Source: Eledone cirrhosa (lineage: Eukaryota). From it: 64,000 bases of DNA. The stretch is taken from NCBI GenBank assembly GCA_964016885.1, contig OZ024746.1, positions 41,478,001-41,542,000 on the forward strand, read 5' to 3'. Positions 1-41,185 of this stretch are shown here, one piece after another. Position numbers and translations under genes: made by a program. A model generated the notes under the pieces. That model saw only the letters and a program-made list of their open reading frames with translations. It was not told the origin of the DNA and did not search any database. Each line of letters opens with the position of its first letter. Position 1 is the first letter of the stretch.

Positions 1-393
1 CGGTTCATCAACCATTTTCCGTCCGACACATTTCGATGGAGTCATGCTGGGTTCAGTACTTCACACGTCTGCTCATACTTCAGAGAAAGCACCCGCACAT
101 ACTAAAGTACACACATAAACACACACACATGCCGACACATACCTATTTATGCATACACACACGTACGCCTACATGCGCAGCCACACACACCACCACATAC
201 ATAGATCAAAGTATATATACACAAACCCTCACTTCCACGGACCCAGTCACACCCACTTGTTGATACATATCGCCACAAGCCTTCTGACGGCTGCTTACTT
301 CGCACCCTATATCAGTTGGGATAAACATATCCTACTCAAACATATACATACATACATACGTGCGCCCATTTACATACACCCAACCTTCTATAC

Positions 394-463
<70 letters not shown>

Positions 464-1037
464 ATATATACACACTCATACACACACATATATATATATA
501 CACATACACACATACATACACATACATACATATACACACACATGTGTATACACATATATATCATCATTCATCATTTCATTTTACGTCCACTTTTCCCTGC
601 TTGCAAGGGTGGGACGGGAACTGATTCTGGCTTGATTTCTACAGCTGGATGCCCTTCCTAACATCAACCTCATTTACAGTGAGTGCTGGATGCTTTTTGC
701 CGTGGCACCTCCACGACCACTTTACAGTGGAATGATAGGGACCCCAGTCCCTATCATCTCATTTCTACAGCTGAGTAAACTGGAGCAATGTGAAATAAAG
801 TGTGTTGCTCAAGGAAACAACACATCACTCGGTCTGAGAATTGAACTCACAACCTTTCGATTGCAAGCCCAATGCTCTAACCACTAAGCCATGTGCCTCC
901 AATGGTATATGTATGTATGTATGTATATATCGACACATATACATACATACACACACATACATATATGTATACTCCCACATGTCCACACATACATACAAAT
1001 AAACATACGTTCATAAACATTACCTACAGACGTACAT

Positions 1038-1076
<39 letters not shown>

Positions 1077-1355
1077 CACACAAAAAAGAAAAGAGACAAC
1101 TTAACATGCATACGCACATCCACATATGTATACATACAAATACCTACGCATATGCCGATGTACATACATCTACACATGCATACACTTGCACATATGCATA
1201 TCTGCCCACACACACATGTGCTTCCATATATAAATATATAAACACAACTGTAAGTTAAAAGTTAAAAATACATTATGCAATAAAAACAATATACCACAAA
1301 ATAATGGTAAATTACAGTAACATAAAAAATATACAATGTAATATAATATATAATA

Positions 1356-1413
<58 letters not shown>

Positions 1414-1426
1414 ATCTCTCCCCCTA

Positions 1427-1469
<43 letters not shown>

Positions 1470-1995
1470 TACACACACATGTACACAGACTCATATATAC
1501 ATATACGGATATATACAGATATATATAAAGGATATGTGATAAAGTAATACAACAAGAATAATAGTGATAATAAAAATAATAAAAAGCATATATAGTCCAT
1601 ATATAATCATCCGCACACATTCCTATGAGATGCACATAAACACATACTTGTATGCACAAATACACATACACACATATAGAGGCCCGCATATGCATGCACC
1701 TGCACGCACACCATATCCATACATATACATACACACACACATATATATACGCACACTTACTCACCCACACACACACCTACTCATACGTGGCTATACGTAC
1801 ATACTCACCCATACATATATATATTCATATTTAGACACACACATACATATACACACATACACCCACATTCCGCCACATATGTATATACATACACATGTTT
1901 GCACATACAGGCGCGTATAAGCTCATGCACACACGCACCCATGCTGATACACACACCCAAGAACCCACCCACGTATATAAATATACATACATACG
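1..1995 (+). repeat. Left arm of large inverted repeat (runs off the window start)
   Basis: Position 1 (cggttcatcaaccattttccgtcc) is the reverse complement of 4228 backwards. Unique blocks match in order (ccacggacccagtcacacc, gcacacattcctatgaga, ccacattccgccaca) down to 1995 pairing with 2653. Confidence 0.95.
561..900 (-). mobile_element. Young composite tRNA-derived SINE (group 1) with RTE-type 3' tail
   Basis: Minus strand reads GGAGGCACATGGCTTAGTGGTTAGAGC (A box) and GAGTTCAATTC (B box), then ccttgagcaa-acactttatttcac core, then ggaagggcatccagctgtagaaa, ending in a (TGA)n tail. Near-identical to 47071-47404 and 61651-61995. Confidence 0.92.
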
Positions 1996-2367
1996 CGTCT
2001 ATACACACACACACGTACATATACCAACACACAGGTCCACACATAAAAGCACGCGATATGATAATAAAACAATATGATAATAAAATAAAATAAATAAATA
2101 AATTTACAATATTTTAGGGTACATTAAAATCTGCATGTAACTGCATAAATAGGTACAAGAAAAGAAGGGATAAAATAAAGGAACGGGTAAAAAAAAAAAA
2201 AAAAAAATAAATAAAAAAAAAAATAAATAAAAAAAAAAAATGGGAGGGGTGGTACAGGAGAAGGTGCGTGCGTCCGTGCGATATACTACACACAGGTATT
2301 ATGAGATGCAAACTTGTGTCCGTGTATAGAACAGGTAACAGTAAGAGAACAATGATAGAACAATAAT

Positions 2368-2556
2368 TGTTTCTACTTTTTGGCACAAGGCCAGCAATTA
2401 CCCAGTGCATTACTGGTACTTTATTTTATCGACCCCGTAAGGATGAAAGGCAAAGTTAACCTCGGCGGGATTTGAACTCAGAATGGCAAAGACCGTAACT
2501 CTATGCGTCAAAGCATGGCGTCCGACTCTCTACCGATACTGCCAATCCATCGCCCT
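2368..2556 (-). mobile_element. tRNA-derived SINE (group 2) in the inverted-repeat spacer
   Basis: Minus strand has B box GAGTTCAAATCCC and the central domain ttgcctttcatccttacggggtcgataaaataaagtaccag. It is flanked by atagaacaataat (2355-2367 and 2571-2583). Confidence 0.9.
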
Positions 2557-2652
2557 AGACACACACATACATAGAACAATAATAGAACAATAATGATATT
2601 AATAATCACTGTTCCAAAGTGGAACAGGCGGAGAGTATATAGTCACGATTTA

Positions 2653-3162
2653 CGTATGTATGTATATTTATATACGTGGGTGGGTGCATGGGTGTGTGTA
2701 TGGGCATGGGTGCTTGTGTGCATGAGCTTATACGCGCCTGTATATGCAAACATGTGTATGTATATACATGTGTGGCGGAATGTGGGTGTATGTGTGTGTC
2801 TAAATATGAATATATATATGTATGTACGTATAGCCACGTATGAGTATGTGTGTGTGTGGGTGAGTAAGTGTGCGTATATATATGTGTGTGTGTATGTATA
2901 TGTATGGATATGGTGTGCGTGCAGGTGCATGCATATGCGGGCCTCTATATGTGTGTATGTGTATTTGTGCATACAAGTATGTGTTTATGTGCATCTCATA
3001 GGAATGTGTGCGGATGATTATATATGGACTATATATGCTTTTTATTATTTTTATTATCACTATTATTCTTGTTGTATTACTTTATTACATATCCTTTATA
3101 TATATCTGTATATATCCGTATATGTATATATGAGTCTGTGTACATGTGTGTGTATATATATA

Positions 3163-3232
<70 letters not shown>

Positions 3233-3501
3233 TATATATATATTAGGGGGAGAGATAGATATATATATAGATATATATATCATATTGTATATTATATTAC
3301 ATTGTACATTTTTTTATGTTACGGTAATTTACCATTATTTTGTGGTATATTGTTTTTATTGCATAATGTATTTTTAACTTTTAACTTTTATTATTTTTAT
3401 TATCACTATTATTCTTGTATTACTTTATCACATATCCTTTATATATATCTGTATATATCCGTATATGTATATATGAGTCTGTGTACATGTGTGTGTGTGT
3501 A

Positions 3502-3557
<56 letters not shown>

Positions 3558-4228
3558 AATGTACATCTGTAGGTAATGTTTATGAACGTATGTGTATTTG
3601 TATGTATGTGTGGACATGTGGGAGTATACATATATGTATGTATGTGTGTGTATGTATGTATATGTGTGTATATATATATGTGTATACACATGTATGTATA
3701 TATGTATGTATGTGTATGTATGTGTGTATGTGTATATATATGTGTGTGTATGAGTGTGTATATATATATATATATATATATAAATGTATAGAAGGTTGGG
3801 TGTATGTAAATGGGCGCACGTATGTATGTATGTATGTATGTATGTATGTATGTATGTATGTATGTATGTATGTATGTATGTATATGTTTGAGTAGGATAT
3901 GCTTATCCCAATTGACACAGGGTGCGAAGTAAGCAGCCGTCAGAAGGCTTGTGGCGATATGTATCAACAAGTGGGTGTGACTGGGTCCGTGGAAGTTAGG
4001 GAGAGAGAGTGTGTATATATATACTTCGATGTATGTATGTGGGTGTGTCTGCGCATGTAGGCGTATGTGTGTGTATGCATAAATAGGTATGTGTCGGCAT
4101 GTGTGTGTGTTTATGTGTGTACTTTAGTATGTGCGGGTGCTTTCTCTGAAGTATGAGCAGACGTGTGAAGTACTGAACCCAGCATGACTCCATCGAAATG
4201 TGTTGGACGGAAAATGGTTGATGAACCG
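2653..4228 (-). repeat. Right arm of large inverted repeat
   Basis: Reverse complement of 1-1995 without the SINE at 561-900. It has an internal duplication (about 3040-3160 repeated at about 3387-3510) that replaces left-arm 1080-1250. Confidence 0.95.
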
Positions 4229-4583
4229 TGTGGCAGCAGATACTGACCAGAACTTGTGATGACGTGGAGTAAAAACAGCCAATGGCATGACAAGAGTGGA
4301 AATAGGGTTTTTTGAGGGTGCTTTTTTATGATAACACCCCAGTGATAAAATTTGCTCCGGACGAAACACCCGTGTTTGAAAGAACCTGCAGAAGTAGAAT
4401 CAGCCAGATCCATACAAGGACCATGTCTCGAGCTACATGCTGGCAAAACATTTGTAGCACGAAATAAACTAAGTCCAGATGCATCACTGATTTTTCGTTT
4501 TCTTTATAATATATATATATATATATATTTCAAATATGGAAAAAGCAAACAAGTTAAAAAAATCTTTACTTACTCACTTTAAT

Positions 4584-4661
4584 GTCTCTACTGCAGTTTC
4601 ATTAGGAAAATAACAAAACTCTGAGTAGAGTATCGCGAGAAATCCTAAATCATCAGGAGAC
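4584..4661 (-). ncRNA. Type I hammerhead ribozyme, minimal palindromic helix III (PLE/retrozyme type)
   Basis: Minus strand: GUCUC-CUGAUGA-U UUAGGA..UCCUAA U-GAAA-CUGCAG-UA-GAGAC. Helix I is 5 bp, helix II is 6 bp, helix III is the palindrome ACUGCAGU, triplet GUA, and the core is intact. Confidence 0.8.
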
Positions 4662-4813
4662 TTTCTCTGTTCAGAAGTAAAATTCAAAACAAGAATTCCC
4701 GTTCGTGTTCAGTGAAAATTTCGAATGAAATGACTGTCACGTGACAACTGACCAACAGGAGGATAGTAAAGTGGATGGTGGCAGGCAATGTGCTACTAAA
4801 AAGTAGTTTGGGA

Positions 4814-5619: not shown

Positions 5620-6265
5620 AATCATTTACCGTCCACTTTTTCTGTTAGCAAGAGTTGGATGGGTCCTCACTGACCATGTTTGTACTGAAGCTAGGCCACT
5701 GGCCTCTGAGACGGCGGTTTGCATTTCTCTTAGATATGGTTCCCAGTTCTACCAAGTGAATTTTATTATGTTGGTACCAGTACTAGAGAGGTTGTCATGA
5801 CTTTGACACAACTGGGGGGGGGGGGTCTTCCCAGCTCTTTGTTTGGCAAACTTTTTATGGTTGAATGCCCTTCCTATCATCAATCACTTCACAGCCTGTA
5901 CTTGGTTTGTTTTCATGTAGATAACCAACACTAAGGAGGTTTTCATGTCTTTGACATAACTGGAGGCTCCTTCCAGCCCTTTGTTTGGCCAGTTTTCTAT
6001 GGCTGGATGCCCTTCCTATTAGCAATCACTTCACAGCAAGTACTGGATTTGTTTTCATGTAAATTACCAAGACTAGGGAAGTTTTCATGTCTTTGACATA
6101 ACTAGAGGGTCCTCCCAATCCTATATTTGGCAAGCTTTCTATGGTTGGATGCTTTCCTATTGCCAACCACTTTACAGCATGTACTGGGTATCCTGTAGAT
6201 CACCAACACTAGGAAGGTTGTCATATCCTTGACATAACTGAAGAGGCCTTCCAACCCTATATTTG
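5620..6265 (-). mobile_element. SINE-like element with about 3.5 tandem copies of a ~140-bp module
   Basis: Units start near 5782, 5930, 6072 and 6208 (actag-gaggttgtcatg-ctttgaca-aact..ggatgcccttcct). An RTE-type tail lies near 5620-5665. Related sequence occurs at 7140-7390 (+) and 20960-21290 (+). Confidence 0.7.
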
Positions 6266-6989: not shown

Positions 6990-7135
6990 TACTGATTAGC
7001 TGAGGGCATTGTTTTCTGGGTATGGTCCTGGAAGCTGTCCCAGAAGTAGAGACAGTACTCCATTGTGGGTTTCATCTGTGCCTCATAAAGAGTCATTAGT
7101 TGTTGAAAAGGGAAGTATTTTCTGGCCTTGAGGAG
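6990..7135 (-). pseudogene. LINE (CR1/Jockey-like) ORF2 fragment downstream of RT
   Basis: KARKYFPFQQLMTLYEAQMKPTMEYCLYFW resembles the LLxLYKAQIRPxMEYCxxVW motif. Confidence 0.6.
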
Positions 7136-10100
7136 TACATGCTCTAAAATGGTTGGTGTTAGGAAAGACATCCAGCCATAGAAAGCTTGCTAAACAAAAG
7201 GTTGGGAGGACCCTTCAGTTGCATCAAAGTCATGACAATCTCTCTAGTACTGGTGCCACCACAATAAAATGCACTGGGTAGAATGAGGAACTGTATGTAA
7301 GAGTGATGCAAACCCAAAACTTGTTTGGGAGGTCAGTGGCACAGTTTCAGTACAAACGTGGTCTGTGAGGACCCATCCAACACTTGTTAATGGTCAATTG
7401 TTGGGATGTGGTCATAGTTGTTAAGAATGTGTATTCTCTGATGTTTCAACAAATAGGTGGTTTTTCTCATCTTTTAATATTTCTCTGCATTAACTTAAAT
7501 AGTATTATGCTGGAAGAGTATCTTCTAAAACCATTTTTTTTCTAAATATTCTTTATATCATAAGTATTCATTTCAAAATAAGTTTTTATTTTCTTTTAGC
7601 TCACAATTTATTTTATATTTAATATCACATAACAAATTTATTTCAATGAATGTAAGTTGAATATAATTTAGAACTTACAATGAAATCTGGTGTTATTTGT
7701 CTTATATTAGGGAGAATGTACATGATAAAAAAGAAAATATAAATATCATAACATAAAAATTGAAGATTTAGGAATCCTTTGTCTTCAATTTCTTTGACAG
7801 TTACTAAGAATAACATTTTCTCTCTATTCACATGAGAGAAAAAACATTGATTATGGCCTGATATGAGATATGATTGTGTTGTTCCTATTCATTGTTAGAA
7901 TTGTTAATATAAAGTGTTATGATCAACAGGGCTTAAGGCTGAGAACTTCACAGCTTGAGTGGCAGTGAGGGAGACATATTTGAACATCTCTGAGAAACAG
8001 AAAACATCTTGAAGGCAAAAAGCACCACATTGAATGATATGACAAAGAATTAGCCAATGGGGTGTCAAAAAAGAAGTCAATAAATAAAATACATTCTTTA
8101 TAATTTTGGTTCGACAAAGAAATATTTTCAACCTATTTTCAGTATCATTTGCTCATATCAAACTCTTTTCATACTTTTAATAGCTAGACTTGTGTTCAAT
8201 AGTGAGACATATTCCTGCATCATGTGATGGTAAATAGGAAGTTCAATGAAAGAGTTATGTTCAAATGCAATTCACAAAAAAATATTTGATATTTGTTTAA
8301 TACATAAGGATTTTCATAAGACAATCAACTTTTCTAAGTGCACATTTTAACAAGGAATTCTATCTGATGCTCTAATGCCTCTGATAATCCACTGCCATTG
8401 ACTTGTACTTTACCTCTCAACCCTAACAAAGTAGTAAATATATAAAATAGCAAAGGTAGATACCCATTAAAGTAAAGAAAATTTACCCTAAAAACAAAAT
8501 AAAACAGTATGTATACCTTATTTATTAGTTGATAGTATAACACTTACTGATTTTTCCTGCTATTAGTTTAGACATGTATTGATCATGTACAGAATCAAGT
8601 GCGCTTGTCATCAACGTTTCACAACCAATTTAAGAGATATAAGAGTACAAGTTTTGTAATTGATTTTTAAGTTGGGAAAATCAACTCTTTAAGTAATTGA
8701 TGCTACTTAACCTTTTGATAAATGAAGTGATATATTGGTCACTGTTGGCTGTGAATGGAATTCGTCACAGAAACATTATTATCAATATAAACCCTGGTTG
8801 GCCAATGGTGCCATGAAAAGTACACCACTTACTGAAAGGTTAAAGAATCTCTTTAGAATTAATTCTTTGACAAAAAGCTAATGTCGTATTTCTCCATTAT
8901 CCAATTCATTCACTGCTAAATTGTTGCTGACTGGTCTCTATGTATAGAGAAATTTTAGTATATGACTTTCCTAGTTATTGTATTAGAAATATCACTGATA
9001 TGAAAAATAGATGTCTTAACTAAAATATTGAACAAGGAATCTTTGGGCAGCTTATATTCTTTGAGAATTCATAAATGTGAACCATTATCATATTTTATAA
9101 GCTGTTATGTATATGTCATTGATTTTTATTTGCTTGTTAGCCTCCAGGCTGGTGTTGATGCAAGAAAATCGTTTATAAAATATGAGAATGAATTGAATGC
9201 AAAAGTAATTACATTATGATGCTAATTTGAACTAAAATATCATTGTGAATATAAGCTACAGAAAATATTGTAAACACGCTTATGTGATTTGTTATATAGT
9301 TACTGTGATTGCTGCTTTGTGTTACAAAGACAAAGATATTGATAAATTGGGTATTGTGAATGACTAGTGAAATAGACTATTCTATACCAAAGTACAGAAA
9401 TCTCAGTGACAAAAGATTATATGCCCTACCTGCAGATACTGGAATTAAAGATAGACATTCTTTTCAAGTTCACCTTTTGTTATATTAAACATCTTTCTTC
9501 CCTTTCTTTTCACATTTTTCAATTCCATCTTTCCTGTCCAGCCTAATCTACTTCCACTTTCTGACTGTTATATCATTGTTATGAACAGTAAATTACCAAT
9601 AAAATGATAATATAACGACATATCAAATTGTCTGTCTATGTTCCTTACTAGAAAATATTCTGCTTATCTATTTCTACTGATACAAGTAATAGTTACAGAG
9701 ATAAATTCAGGATACATAATTTAATACAACATTGACTTTTCTAGGTTATTACAGTTATTATACTTACTAATGTTCTAATGAACATTTTCTAGTTATTTTA
9801 ATGAATATTTCATGACTTTTTAAATTAAAATATTACCAGCAGTCGATCTAAGAGATAAACCCCATAATCACAATTACAGCAAAGTAGTCATTCTATGATA
9901 AATAGTCAAGTTAGACTTTTCACAAACTGCAAAGATTAGTTGAATAGGTGATAGATAAATCTCTTTCTAGATAGGAGGTTAATCTATTTCAAGTAGTGTT
10001 AACAAAAGTCTCGTTACCTATTATATATTTGGGTATAGAATCCAATTTTCTGCTAAATATACTTTCAGTATTCCTTTTTCATATCACTGTAATCTATGGA

Positions 10101-32359: not shown

Positions 32360-32498
32360 AACTCATTTCTACAGCTGAGAAAACTGGAGCAACATGAAAT
32401 AAAGTATCTTGCTCAAGGACACAACACATCACCCAGTCCGAGAATCGAACTCACAACCTTTCGATTGTAAGCCCAATGCTCTAACCACTAAGCCATTG
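32360..32498 (-). mobile_element. Group 1 SINE head (tRNA plus core)
   Basis: Closely matches 760-891. Confidence 0.85.
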
Positions 32499-40249: not shown

Positions 40250-40705
<456 letters not shown>

Positions 40706-40845
40706 TGAAGTTTCCTTTGAAAATTGAAAAAGTCAGAGGAATGAAGAGTGCTCTACGTAAGTTACAGAGCTAAATATTTAATGTATAATAAAAAATACAA
40801 TATAATTACCTCATTATTACAATACAATATAATTACCTCATTTTA

Positions 40846-40923
40846 AATTGCCTTGTCTGACGAACGAATGCGGACGTTTATTGTATTTGTCTTATTCGGG
40901 AAACCTTTGGTAATGAGGTAATT
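40846..40923 (+). ncRNA. Type I hammerhead ribozyme with long helices I and II
   Basis: AAUUGCCUUGU-CUGACGA-A CGAAUG..UAUUCG G-GAAA-CC uuu GG-UA-AUGAGGUAAUU. Helix I is 11 bp with three G-U pairs, helix II about 11 bp with one bulge, triplet GUA, and predicted cleavage after 40912. Confidence 0.82.
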
Positions 40924-41044
40924 ATATTGTATTGTTTATTATGCATTAAATATATATATATATATATTGTATTGTTTATTATGCATTAAATATATTATAT
41001 TGTATTGTTTATTATGCATTAAATATATATATATATATATATAA

Positions 41045-41185
41045 TGAAGCAAGTGTGGTAAGAACCAGGTGGACCATAACGCACTGGAGTACTTGATACT
41101 TAGGGTAGTAGAGTGGGTAATAGGAAGAGAGTCAGGACCCCGACAGCTGAGCTCCAGCCGTTTCGACAGCTAGATCTGAACGCAT
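41045..41185 (-). mobile_element. PLE pseudo-LTR-like remnant, family E (3' half of a hammerhead)
   Basis: Minus strand GAAA-CGGCTG-gagct-CAGCTG-TC-ggggtcctgactc, then actctact..agtatcaagtactc. Copies lie at 38938-38987, 62265-62400 and 63490-63625. Confidence 0.65.

What the first reader, a model, noticed from the sequence alone, without database searches (positions are those of the whole stretch)
1..4661. Diverged inverted repeat of at least 4.2 kb next to an intact hammerhead: candidate large non-coding ribozyme retroelement
Seen: the arms 1-1995 and 2653-4228 converge on a 657-bp spacer. Beyond the right arm lie about 270 bp of unique sequence and then a complete minus-strand hammerhead (4584-4661) that points into the arm and is followed by GTGAGTAAGT donor-like motifs. 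Established: PLEs carry hammerheads in their pseudo-LTRs, can retain introns and often form inverted duplications. Inference: the unit of hammerhead plus ~2 kb microsatellite-rich body may be a non-autonomous PLE-mobilised (retrozyme-like) element present as a tail-to-tail pair. A read-through transcript would form kilobase-scale dsRNA, a possible ADAR substrate in a coleoid.
Basis: partly seen in the sequence, partly recalled or inferred. Interest (0 to 1): 0.75.

Follow-up and report, generated by a model that had tools for sequence, protein, structure and literature searches.

The report
Head-to-head Penelope-like element pair, separate hammerhead
The 4-kb inverted repeat is two truncated copies of a very common Penelope-like retrotransposon lying head to head, likely made in one insertion into a (TA)n microsatellite, and the hammerhead motif beside it belongs to a separate, older short repeat, so the locus is ordinary for this genome.

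Summary
The inverted repeat is real, but it is not a hammerhead-plus-2-kb composite element. Both arms are the non-coding 3' region ("family A") of a roughly 5.6-kb Penelope-like element (PLE). Its ORF carries the RWK, DKT, YRDD, CxCx5C and GIY-YIG motifs of the Hydra clade.

- **Orientation:** the arms lie head to head, with the 3' ends and (TA)n tails pointing outward.
- **Left arm:** it runs about 364 nt past the window start and ends without a hammerhead.
- **"Spacer":** this is further 5' sequence of the left copy plus a 213-bp SINE insertion. The two copies abut at about 2650-2653.
- **"Unique 270 bp":** this is the element's own 3' end, with at least 2,567 first-look candidates genome-wide.
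- **Single event:** the arms are each other's closest relatives (97.1% against at most 95.4%). Full-length copies elsewhere show the same inverted or direct terminal fragments, as described for PLEs.

The hammerhead motif (4584-4661, minus strand) is far beyond chance and is backed by helix II covariation. It belongs to a separate, older repeat of about 470-486 bp ("family B", about 270 candidates) that meets the right arm tail to tail at a shared (TA)n. Rfam does not recognise it, and cleavage is untested. Verdict: a new member of known kinds, of low interest.

The parts
1..2651 (-). Left copy of the Penelope-like element's 3' UTR (family A), 5'-truncated about 140 nt after the ORF stop. Its 3' end, an 85-nt tail and (AT)n lie off-window at about -284, -364 and -500. 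It carries two later SINE insertions.
547..949 (-). SINE-like insertion in the left arm only. It has a tRNA-like head at 834-891 and has no counterpart in the right arm.
   Evidence: tRNA model 31.2 bits against a cut-off of 29; gap in the arm alignment at 562-923; L023 and L024 match 547-949 and 547-898.
2358..2570 (-). Hyper-abundant tRNA-derived SINE-like insertion inside the left copy, flanked by a 13-nt duplication at 2345-2357 and 2571-2583.
   Evidence: sequence; summed word depth in the millions over 2375-2478, and one X2 contig joining 2354 to 2582, i.e. an empty site; L092 and L093 lack it.
2653..4507 (+). Right copy of the same 3' UTR (family A). It is 5'-truncated about 440 nt further in than the left copy and is of the short 3'-end variant.
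2647..2655 (.). Head-to-head junction of the two 5'-truncated copies. They abut directly, with up to 3 nt of possible overlap and no spacer.
   Evidence: comparison with L092 and L093, which run on into the ORF region.
4508..4528 (.). (TA)n tract shared as the 3' tail of the right family A copy and the 3' tail of the opposite-strand family B copy.
4529..4810 (-). Truncated single copy of the hammerhead-bearing short repeat (family B; unit about 470-486 bp elsewhere). It is 80-90% identical to other copies.
4584..4661 (-). Type I hammerhead motif. Helix I is 4661-4657 with 4588-4584. CUGAUGA is at 4656-4650. Helix II is 4648-4643 with 4607-4602, with a long distal extension. GAAA is at 4600-4597. 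Helix III is 2 bp plus a UGCA loop. Predicted cleavage is after A4589.
   Evidence: Not recognised by Rfam.
4568..4577 (-). Splice-donor-like GTGAGTAAGT motif, retained in most family B copies. Its function is untested.

Best explanation
The inverted repeat is two 5'-truncated copies of the 2.3-kb non-coding 3' region of an abundant Penelope-like retrotransposon lying head to head, most likely produced in one insertion event into a (TA)n microsatellite. The hammerhead motif next to it belongs to a different, older short repeat.

**Shown here:**
- Family A copies share one end followed by (TA)n and are truncated to varying extents at the other end.
- Longer copies run on into an ORF with reverse-transcriptase and C-terminal GIY-YIG endonuclease motifs.
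- Full-length copies carry inverted or direct terminal fragments at their 5' end.
- The two window arms abut directly and are each other's closest relatives.
- The hammerhead stretch is a separate family, on the opposite strand, that ends at the same (TA)n.

**Inferred:**
- Because (TA)n is self-complementary, both nicked target strands could prime reverse transcription on the element RNA's (UA)n tail.
- Two cDNAs would then grow inward and be joined by microhomology, giving a head-to-head dimer with a tail extension at one end only.
- The target was probably the (TA)n tail of the older hammerhead element. Two SINEs inserted into the left arm later.
- The family B hammerhead would, if active, trim that element's own transcripts, probably only as a dimer. 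In this lone truncated copy it most likely does nothing.
For: **Family A behaves like a retroposon.**
- All 39 non-self scored matches end at window 4512-4528 or within 33 nt beyond it.
- In the 28 family A loci compared, 5' start points range from 4205 down to about 3500.

**Family A is the 3' UTR of an autonomous element.**
- L092 and L093 run past the window's junction, and L092 runs on into ORF fragments.
- Four full-length copies (L092, L107, L108, L109) share about 2.5 kb of ORF region followed by the 2.3-kb UTR.

**The ORF is PLE-like.**
- The motifs RWK, DKT, YRDD, S.HP, CxCx5C, (V/I)Y..Y(I/V)G and R..NH occur in order in 3 intact genomic ORFs of 861-894 aa from related families (L110, L111, L112; L111 lacks RWK). 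Most of them occur in 12 database relatives: DKT in 10 of 12, CxCx5C and the GIY..YIG pattern in 10 of 12.
- Passages of Craig et al. 2021 (PMC8557442) give RWK, DKT and CxCX5C as features of the Hydra clade.
- A profile of the family aligns over 475 columns, with 96.4% probability and E 1.1e-9, to P0026. Pfam calls RVT_1 (35.9 bits against 29.6) and GIY-YIG (24.9 against 22.6) in P0026.

**PLE-type architecture.**
- Three of the 4 full-length copies have an inverted 3'-terminal fragment abutting the 5' end, and L107 has a direct one.
- L009 and L015 are further head-to-head pairs.
- An 85-nt tail identical to the element's 5' leader sits at the left end only.

**Single event.**
- The arms are sisters in a tree of 27 rows. 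They are 97.1% identical over 569 nt, against at most 95.4% to any of 22 independent other copies.
- No host DNA is duplicated, and the two copies abut directly.

**(TA)n targeting.**
- The 3' ends of sampled copies are followed by (TA)n, directly or after the tail.
- In at least 9 of 16 truncated copies examined, the 5' junction abuts (TA)n.
- The legend of figure 1 in PMC8557442 names (TA)n as preferred targets.

**The hammerhead belongs to a separate family.**
- define its own boundaries and copies.
- Helix II pairs covary: GC 19, AU 17, GU 4, other 5 at one pair; GC 31, AU 9 at the next. There are 31 cells changed on both sides against a shuffled mean of 15.3 (0 of 500 shuffles reach it) and 5-19 when the partner is slid.
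- No similarity between the family B unit and the PLE was found beyond TA repeats.
Against: - Pfam finds no RVT_1 in any family A-type ORF or in the three intact related ORFs. It finds GIY-YIG only below cut-off (17.9-20.1 bits against 22.6).
- A profile search of PDB sequences found nothing. The structure prediction could not be run.
- No hammerhead was found by my descriptor in any family A or related PLE locus, although Hydra-clade PLEs are reported to have canonical ones (PMC8557442).
- The sister relationship rests on 22 other copies out of at least 2,567 candidates, and those were chosen by likeness to the right arm.
- The two arms have different 3'-end variants. I read this as the one-sided PLE tail, but it would also fit two separate insertions.
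- The bidirectional-priming mechanism is my inference; the papers read call the mechanism unknown.
- For the hammerhead: Rfam is silent, there is a U-U at the base of helix II, only 17 of 46 sampled copies keep an intact core, and an alternative fold is about 10 kcal/mol more stable.
Confidence: 0.82

Rival explanations
1. Two independent insertions of the same abundant element happened to land head to head.
For: - The family is very abundant (at least 2,567 first-look candidates).
- It prefers (TA)n, so hot spots could collect several copies.
- The arms have different 3'-end variants and different truncation points.
Against: - The arms are each other's closest relatives (97.1% against at most 95.4%).
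- They abut directly, with no host DNA between them.
- The same arrangement recurs at L009, L015 and 3 of 4 full-length copies.
Confidence: 0.07
2. A single insertion was later copied by a local fold-back (inverted) duplication of host DNA.
For: The arms are sisters with about 3% divergence.
Against: - The repeat ends exactly at the element's own 3' termini on both sides, and no flanking host sequence is duplicated.
- One arm has the 85-nt tail and 440 nt more 5' sequence than the other.
Confidence: 0.07
3. One reading: hammerhead plus a roughly 2-kb body form one non-autonomous retrozyme-like unit present as a tail-to-tail pair.
For: The hammerhead lies 56 nt beyond the right arm's (TA)n. One other family A copy (L013) is likewise abutted by a hammerhead element, though of a different family.
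Against: - No hammerhead lies beyond the left arm.
- None of the 39 other scored copies continues into this hammerhead.
- The hammerhead stretch has its own family, boundaries and greater age.
- The arms' shared ends are 3' ends, and they continue into a PLE ORF elsewhere.
Confidence: 0.02
4. The palindrome is an assembly artefact.
For: Inverted PLE structures are said to trouble assemblies (passage of PMC8557442). No long reads were available here.
Against: - The arms differ by 3-9% and by a 400-bp SINE, unlike a fold-back read artefact.
- Short contigs of two runs bridge the right arm's inner end: X3 covers 2608-2727 and X2 covers 2621-2727. They come from one sample, which may be the assembly's own.
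Confidence: 0.01

Closest known systems
Hydra-clade Penelope-like elements (Craig et al. 2021, PMC8557442; abstract and passages read)
   Same: - C-terminal GIY-YIG endonuclease.
- RWK motif, DKG changed to DKT, and a CxCX5C linker.
- 5' truncation, partial tandems (pseudo-LTR) and inverted 5'-truncated partners.
- A tail at one end only.
- Microsatellite (TA)n targets.
   Different: - No canonical hammerhead was found in this family.
- The 3' UTR is unusually long (about 2.3 kb) and low in complexity.
- The tail is 85 nt rather than 30-40.
[quoted passage not shown] The clade's reported lack of CCHH was not examined further.
Metazoan non-LTR retrozymes (Cervera and de la Pena 2020, PMC7229834, passages read; Li et al. 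2026 preprint 10.64898/2026.07.22.740005, abstract and section 14 read)
   Same: - Type I hammerhead in an AT-rich (34.8% GC), non-coding short unit.
- Partial tandem copies in at least 14 of 40 scored places.
- PLE-like inverted partners in 7 of 40 scored places.
   Different: - The unit is about 470-486 bp, above the 150-450 bp quoted.
- Copies are mostly 1.x units rather than arrays.
- Only 2 sampled loci have two direct-tandem copies of the hammerhead region (L043, L064), and one of those four copies lacks the CUGAUGA box.
- The window's copy is a lone truncated monomer.
- There are no expression or circular-RNA data.
Axolotl HHR_Amex2 hammerhead (PMC7229834, passage read)
   Same: A two-base-pair helix III capped by a tetraloop, and a U-U mismatch at the base of helix II. 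That ribozyme cleaves weakly alone and better as a dimer.
   Different: Here helix II carries a roughly 35-nt distal extension, and helix I is only 5 bp with no loop 1. Activity is untested.
LINE-1 twin priming (recalled, not read here)
   Same: An inversion created during target-primed reverse transcription by priming from both target strands.
   Different: Twin priming yields one element with an inverted 5' part. Here both arms carry the same 3'-terminal sequence and each has its own tail.

Membership tests
Penelope-like elements (arms, family A) | Reverse transcriptase domain of PLE type | tested here: met
   - YRDD and flanking motifs occur in 16 of 18 sequences scanned.
- The family profile aligns to P0026 over 475 columns (96.4%, E 1.1e-9), and that stretch includes P0026's Pfam RVT_1 domain (35.9 bits against 29.6).
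- Direct Pfam scans of the family's own ORFs find no RVT_1.
Penelope-like elements (arms, family A) | GIY-YIG endonuclease fused to the reverse transcriptase | tested here: met
   - The motif pattern is present in 14 of 18 sequences.
- Direct Pfam hits are only sub-threshold (L092 fragment 17.9 bits; 3 of 13 relatives, best 20.1, against 22.6).
- It is aligned by hhalign to P0026's above-threshold GIY-YIG domain.
Penelope-like elements (arms, family A) | DKG-type motif upstream of the reverse transcriptase | tested here: met
   DKT is present in 14 of 18 sequences. DKT is the Hydra-clade form according to the passage of PMC8557442.
Penelope-like elements (arms, family A) | Pseudo-LTRs (partial tandems) and inverted 5'-truncated partners; frequent 5' truncation | tested here: met
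   3 of 4 full-length copies with an inverted terminal fragment, 1 with a direct one; L015; L009.
Penelope-like elements (arms, family A) | Hammerhead ribozyme near the 3' end or in the pseudo-LTR (canonical EN+ clades) | tested here: not met
   My descriptor finds none within the family A copies in L092-L094 and L107-L109; the one hit in L094 (6683-6756) lies outside its family A copy. It finds none in 15 related PLE loci. Rfam finds none in the window. This feature is not universal to PLEs: Naiad and Chlamys elements lack it.
Hydra clade of PLEs | RWK motif, DKT, CxCX5C linker, C-terminal endonuclease | tested here: met
   judged against the description in PMC8557442. No phylogeny with named Hydra sequences was made.
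Metazoan non-LTR retrozymes (family B) | Type I hammerhead with conserved core and three helices | tested here: met
   Core and helices are in the window copy. 17 of 46 sampled copies are intact. Helix II covaries. Catalysis was not tested.
Metazoan non-LTR retrozymes (family B) | Short tandem repeats (dimers to multimers) of 150-450 bp, each with a hammerhead | tested here: inconclusive
   The unit is about 468-486 bp. At least 14 of 40 scored places are permuted or partial tandems. Only L043 and L064 have two direct copies of the hammerhead region, and one of those four copies lacks the CUGAUGA box. The window holds one truncated unit.
Metazoan non-LTR retrozymes (family B) | [quoted passage not shown] | not testable with these tools
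   No RNA run was listed.
Rfam hammerhead families | Match to a curated hammerhead covariance model | tested here: not met
   There is no hammerhead row at gathering score or at E<=10. The same holds for the second motif at 40857-40920.

The most novel reading that the evidence does not exclude
Because this PLE targets the self-complementary (TA)n microsatellite, both nicked strands can prime. Head-to-head dimers would then be a systematic product, seeding this octopod-like genome with many kilobase-scale hairpin loci. When transcribed, these would feed ADAR editing or small-RNA pathways. Alongside them sit thousands of PLE-associated hammerheads with extended helix II, which current Rfam models miss.
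Probability: 0.12. Interest if true: 0.5.

Novelty: new member of a known kind. Interest (0 to 1): 0.2.

Why it matters
The main value is as a correction. What looked like a large ribozyme-bearing non-coding retroelement resolves into two ordinary things. One is a textbook inverted Penelope-like-element insertion. The other is a neighbouring relic of a hammerhead repeat.

Two modest points remain useful:
- The genome carries several hammerhead-bearing repeat families. Four were seen here, one of them with at least 4,603 first-look candidates. Rfam misses the two motifs in the window; the other two families were not run through Rfam.
- The palindromic (TA)n target offers a simple, testable reason why these elements form head-to-head dimers.

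Tried and rejected
- **RNA evidence:** no RNA holder was listed, so expression, editing and circular RNAs could not be examined.
- **Laying reads:** Only 2245-3000 was laid, on short contigs of one sample. No long reads were available.
- **Structure and wider protein searches:** structure prediction of the ORF met a full queue five times, and the search of protein representatives once. No fold test was made.
- **Domain and structure databases:** Pfam on family A ORFs and three intact related ORFs gave no RVT_1. NCBIfam gave nothing relevant. A profile search against PDB sequences gave no match at E<=1.
- **Earlier findings:** The search of earlier findings holds nothing for this genome.
- **Is family B derived from the family A element?** No similarity was found beyond TA repeats.
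- **PLE coding sequence in the window:** tblastn found none. In family B loci, only nearby PLE fragments on the opposite strand turned up, so no autonomous partner for family B was identified.
- **CUGAUGA box in the 85-nt tail:** it is not followed by GAAA or helices. I rejected it as a hammerhead on sight, and the descriptor found nothing.
- **Literature:** a search for 'hammerhead ribozyme' plus 'cephalopod' found 4 papers holding both terms, of which 2 were listed. Neither is about cephalopod hammerheads by its title and abstract start. This covers only that library.
Full report
**Observation**

The inverted repeat is real. The repeat finder lists collinear inverted blocks: 1-190 with 4039-4228 at 98%, 1469-1855 with 2769-3155 at 94%, and 1799-1995 with 2653-2849 at 85%. 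The window lies at G000:C6:41478001-41542000. After fetching the 8 kb to its left (L061), a self-BLAST shows three blocks: -284..561 with 4512..3672 (91.1%), 924..1076 with 3676..3520 (92.4%), and 1252..1995 with 3387..2653 (90.8%). The right arm therefore reaches 4512, not 4228, and the left arm continues off the window. The gap at 562-923 in the left arm is a SINE-like insertion with a tRNA-like head at 834-891.

**The arms are a very abundant repeat with one fixed end**

A search of the genome with 4229-4700 gave 2,567 first-look candidates. Forty were scored. All 39 non-self matches cover the supposedly unique 4229-4512 at 89-97%. They stop at query positions 287-311 (window 4515-4539), except one (L013) that runs to 361. 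None continues into the hammerhead. Across 28 such loci the other end varies, with window start points from 4205 down to about 3500. This is the pattern of 5'-truncated retroposed copies whose 3' end lies at about 4507-4528.

Downstream of that end, copies show either (TA)n directly or an 85-nt extension followed by (TA)n. The left arm has the extension and the right arm does not.

**The 'spacer' is not a spacer**

- Positions 2358-2570 are a hyper-abundant tRNA-derived SINE-like insertion. Summed word depth in the laid contigs reaches the millions there.
- The insertion is flanked by a 13-nt duplication at 2345-2357 and 2571-2583.
- One contig of run X2 joins 2354 to 2582, which is the empty site.
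- With the SINE removed, the left copy aligns with other copies (L092, L093) up to about 2650. There the right arm begins at 2653, with at most 3 nt of possible overlap.

The two copies therefore abut head to head.

**What the element is**

Where the window's left copy stops, L092 continues into ORF fragments on the element's strand. A six-frame search with the 346-aa fragment found 36,563 first-look candidates and many long open frames. Four full-length copies (L092, L107, L108, L109) share about 2.5 kb of ORF region followed by the 2.3-kb low-complexity 3' UTR that forms the window's arms. The whole element is about 5.6 kb.

Motifs:
- The ORFs carry, in order, RWK, DKT, YRDD, S.HP, CxCx5C, a (V/I)Y...Y(I/V)G pair and R..NH.
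- These occur in three intact ORFs of 861-894 aa from related families in this genome (L110-L112; L111 lacks RWK).
- Most of them also occur in 12 database relatives.
- Passages of Craig et al. 2021 describe exactly RWK, DKT and CxCX5C with a C-terminal GIY-YIG endonuclease as the Hydra clade of Penelope-like elements.

Database evidence:
- Pfam itself is nearly blind to this family. It finds no RVT_1, and GIY-YIG only at 17.9-20.1 bits against a cut-off of 22.6.
- A profile search of PDB sequences found nothing.
- The link was made through a profile search that reached P0026. In P0026, Pfam calls RVT_1 (35.9 against 29.6) and GIY-YIG (24.9 against 22.6).
- hhalign aligns the family profile to P0026 over 475 columns with 96.4% probability, from the DKG/DKT motif through the reverse transcriptase to the endonuclease.
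- Atlas neighbours carry the same set of families (a lead only).
- Named relatives come from Argonauta and Octopus. Penelope elements are reported as abundant and recently active in octopus genomes (passages of PMC13282606 and PMC8967140).

**Architecture and mechanism**

Passages of Craig et al. 2021 state that PLE insertions:
- are often 5'-truncated;
- form partial tandems (pseudo-LTRs);
- often have an inverted 5'-truncated copy directly at the 5' end;
- carry a short tail at one end only;
- prefer microsatellites, with (TA)n named as a target.

All of these are seen here:
- Three of 4 full-length copies have an inverted 3'-terminal fragment abutting the 5' end, and L107 has a direct one.
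- L009 and L015 are further head-to-head pairs.
- The 85-nt extension equals the element's own 5' leader and sits at one end of the window's dimer.
- In at least 9 of 16 truncated copies, the 5' junction abuts (TA)n.

In a tree of the 569-nt unique 3' part, the window's arms are sisters. They are 97.1% identical, against at most 95.4% to any other copy. The tree has 27 rows, of which three pairs are the same loci fetched twice, leaving 22 independent other copies.

I conclude that the pair arose in one insertion. I infer that the self-complementary (TA)n target let both nicked strands prime on the RNA's (UA)n tail, and that the two inward-growing cDNAs were joined by microhomology. That last step is untested, and the papers read call the mechanism unknown.

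**The hammerhead**

On the minus strand, 4661-4584 reads:
- a 5-bp helix I;
- CUGAUGA;
- a 6-bp helix II above a U-U mismatch, with a roughly 35-nt distal hairpin;
- GAAA;
- a 2-bp helix III capped by the palindromic UGCA;
- cleavage-site A at 4589.

My descriptor hits the window only there and at 40857-40920, and hits 0 of 200 Markov simulations.

The stretch 4529-4810 belongs to its own family (B). That family has 263-276 first-look candidates, is 80-90% identical between copies, and has its own boundaries. Its unit is about 468-486 bp, 34.8% GC and non-coding. Copies are commonly permuted or partial tandems (at least 14 of 40 scored places) or have inverted partners (7 of 40).

In an alignment of all 46 distinct copies recovered from the loci held, truncated ones included:
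- 87.1% of cells pair.
- Helix II shows two compensatory changes (GC 19, AU 17; GC 31, AU 9).
- 31 cells change on both sides, against a shuffled mean of 15.3 (0 of 500 shuffles reach it) and 5-19 when the partner is slid.
- Only 17 of 46 copies keep an intact core with at least 12 of 13 pairs.

Evidence against an active ribozyme:
- Rfam reports no hammerhead at any threshold tried.
- The hammerhead fold scores -13.4 to -16.6 kcal/mol, against -27.2 for another fold.

A passage of Cervera and de la Pena 2020 describes an axolotl retrozyme hammerhead with the same U-U at the base of helix II and a 2-bp helix III with a tetraloop. It cleaves weakly alone and better as a dimer.

The window's copy is a single truncated unit. 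Even if it were active, it could not release a unit-length RNA.

**Why the two elements touch**

Family B's 3' end and family A's 3' end meet on opposite strands at the (TA)n of 4508-4528. One other family A copy (L013) is abutted in the same way by a different hammerhead family. Family B is the older of the two. The likeliest order of events is:
1. the family B copy, with its (TA)n tail;
2. the PLE dimer, inserted into that (TA)n;
3. two SINE insertions into the left arm.

No similarity links family B to the family A element.

**Verdict**

It is wrong about the unit, its orientation and the predicted second hammerhead. The locus is an ordinary product of known elements. The dsRNA/ADAR idea remains untested because no RNA data were available.

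Noticed in passing
window 40857-40920 (+), within a repeat at about 40703-41045: A second hammerhead-like motif: CUGACGA, a long helix II with an A-G at its base, GAAA, a 3-bp helix III and an 11-bp helix I with three G-U pairs. It lies in a high-copy repeat (4,603 first-look candidates). The two boxes are kept in 11 of 15 sampled rows, and several copies are head-to-head dimers joined inside the motif. Rfam shows no hammerhead there.
   Followed up: partly
L013 906-980 (+), 1428-1502 (+), 329-255 (-); L021 1179-1254; L090 3198-3273; L094 6756-6683 (-): Two further hammerhead families with palindromic helix III loops turned up by chance in fetched flanks. One forms a roughly 522-bp tandem in L013, and one has a canonical G-C at the base of helix II (L094). 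Hammerhead repeats seem common in this genome.
   Followed up: no
window 2358-2570 (-): A tRNA-derived SINE-like repeat with extreme abundance (summed word depth in the millions in runs X1-X4). It also occurs in many of the fetched loci.
   Followed up: partly
window 32435-32496 (-) and 834-891 (-): Two near-identical tRNA-like segments just above the Rfam tRNA cut-off (30.1 and 31.2 bits against 29). They are probably heads of the same SINE family.
   Followed up: no
family B copies such as L058 about 1720-1780; window 4577-4529 (-) holds only the first part: After the hammerhead, longer family B copies have a roughly 60-nt stretch that starts GTGAGT, holds a CTTAAC and a pyrimidine run, and ends TAG. 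This is intron-like and recalls the intron reported in Penelope pseudo-LTRs (passage of PMC8557442). It was seen by eye and is untested.
   Followed up: no
window 4670-4575 (-): The minimum-energy fold pairs CUCUACU in the helix II extension with AGUAGAG, which spans helix III, the cleavage site and helix I. The same pairing is possible in the commoner AGUAGGG copies. It may be an alternative, non-cleaving conformation.
   Followed up: no
L006, L007, L016 (G000:C1 149.86-149.93 Mb): Three almost identical family A loci about 32 kb apart with the same flanks. This suggests a tandem segmental duplication.
   Followed up: no
window 5645-5902 with 7134-7390: Another diverged inverted repeat (77.7% over 264 columns), with further partial copies at 5936-6185.
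   Followed up: no
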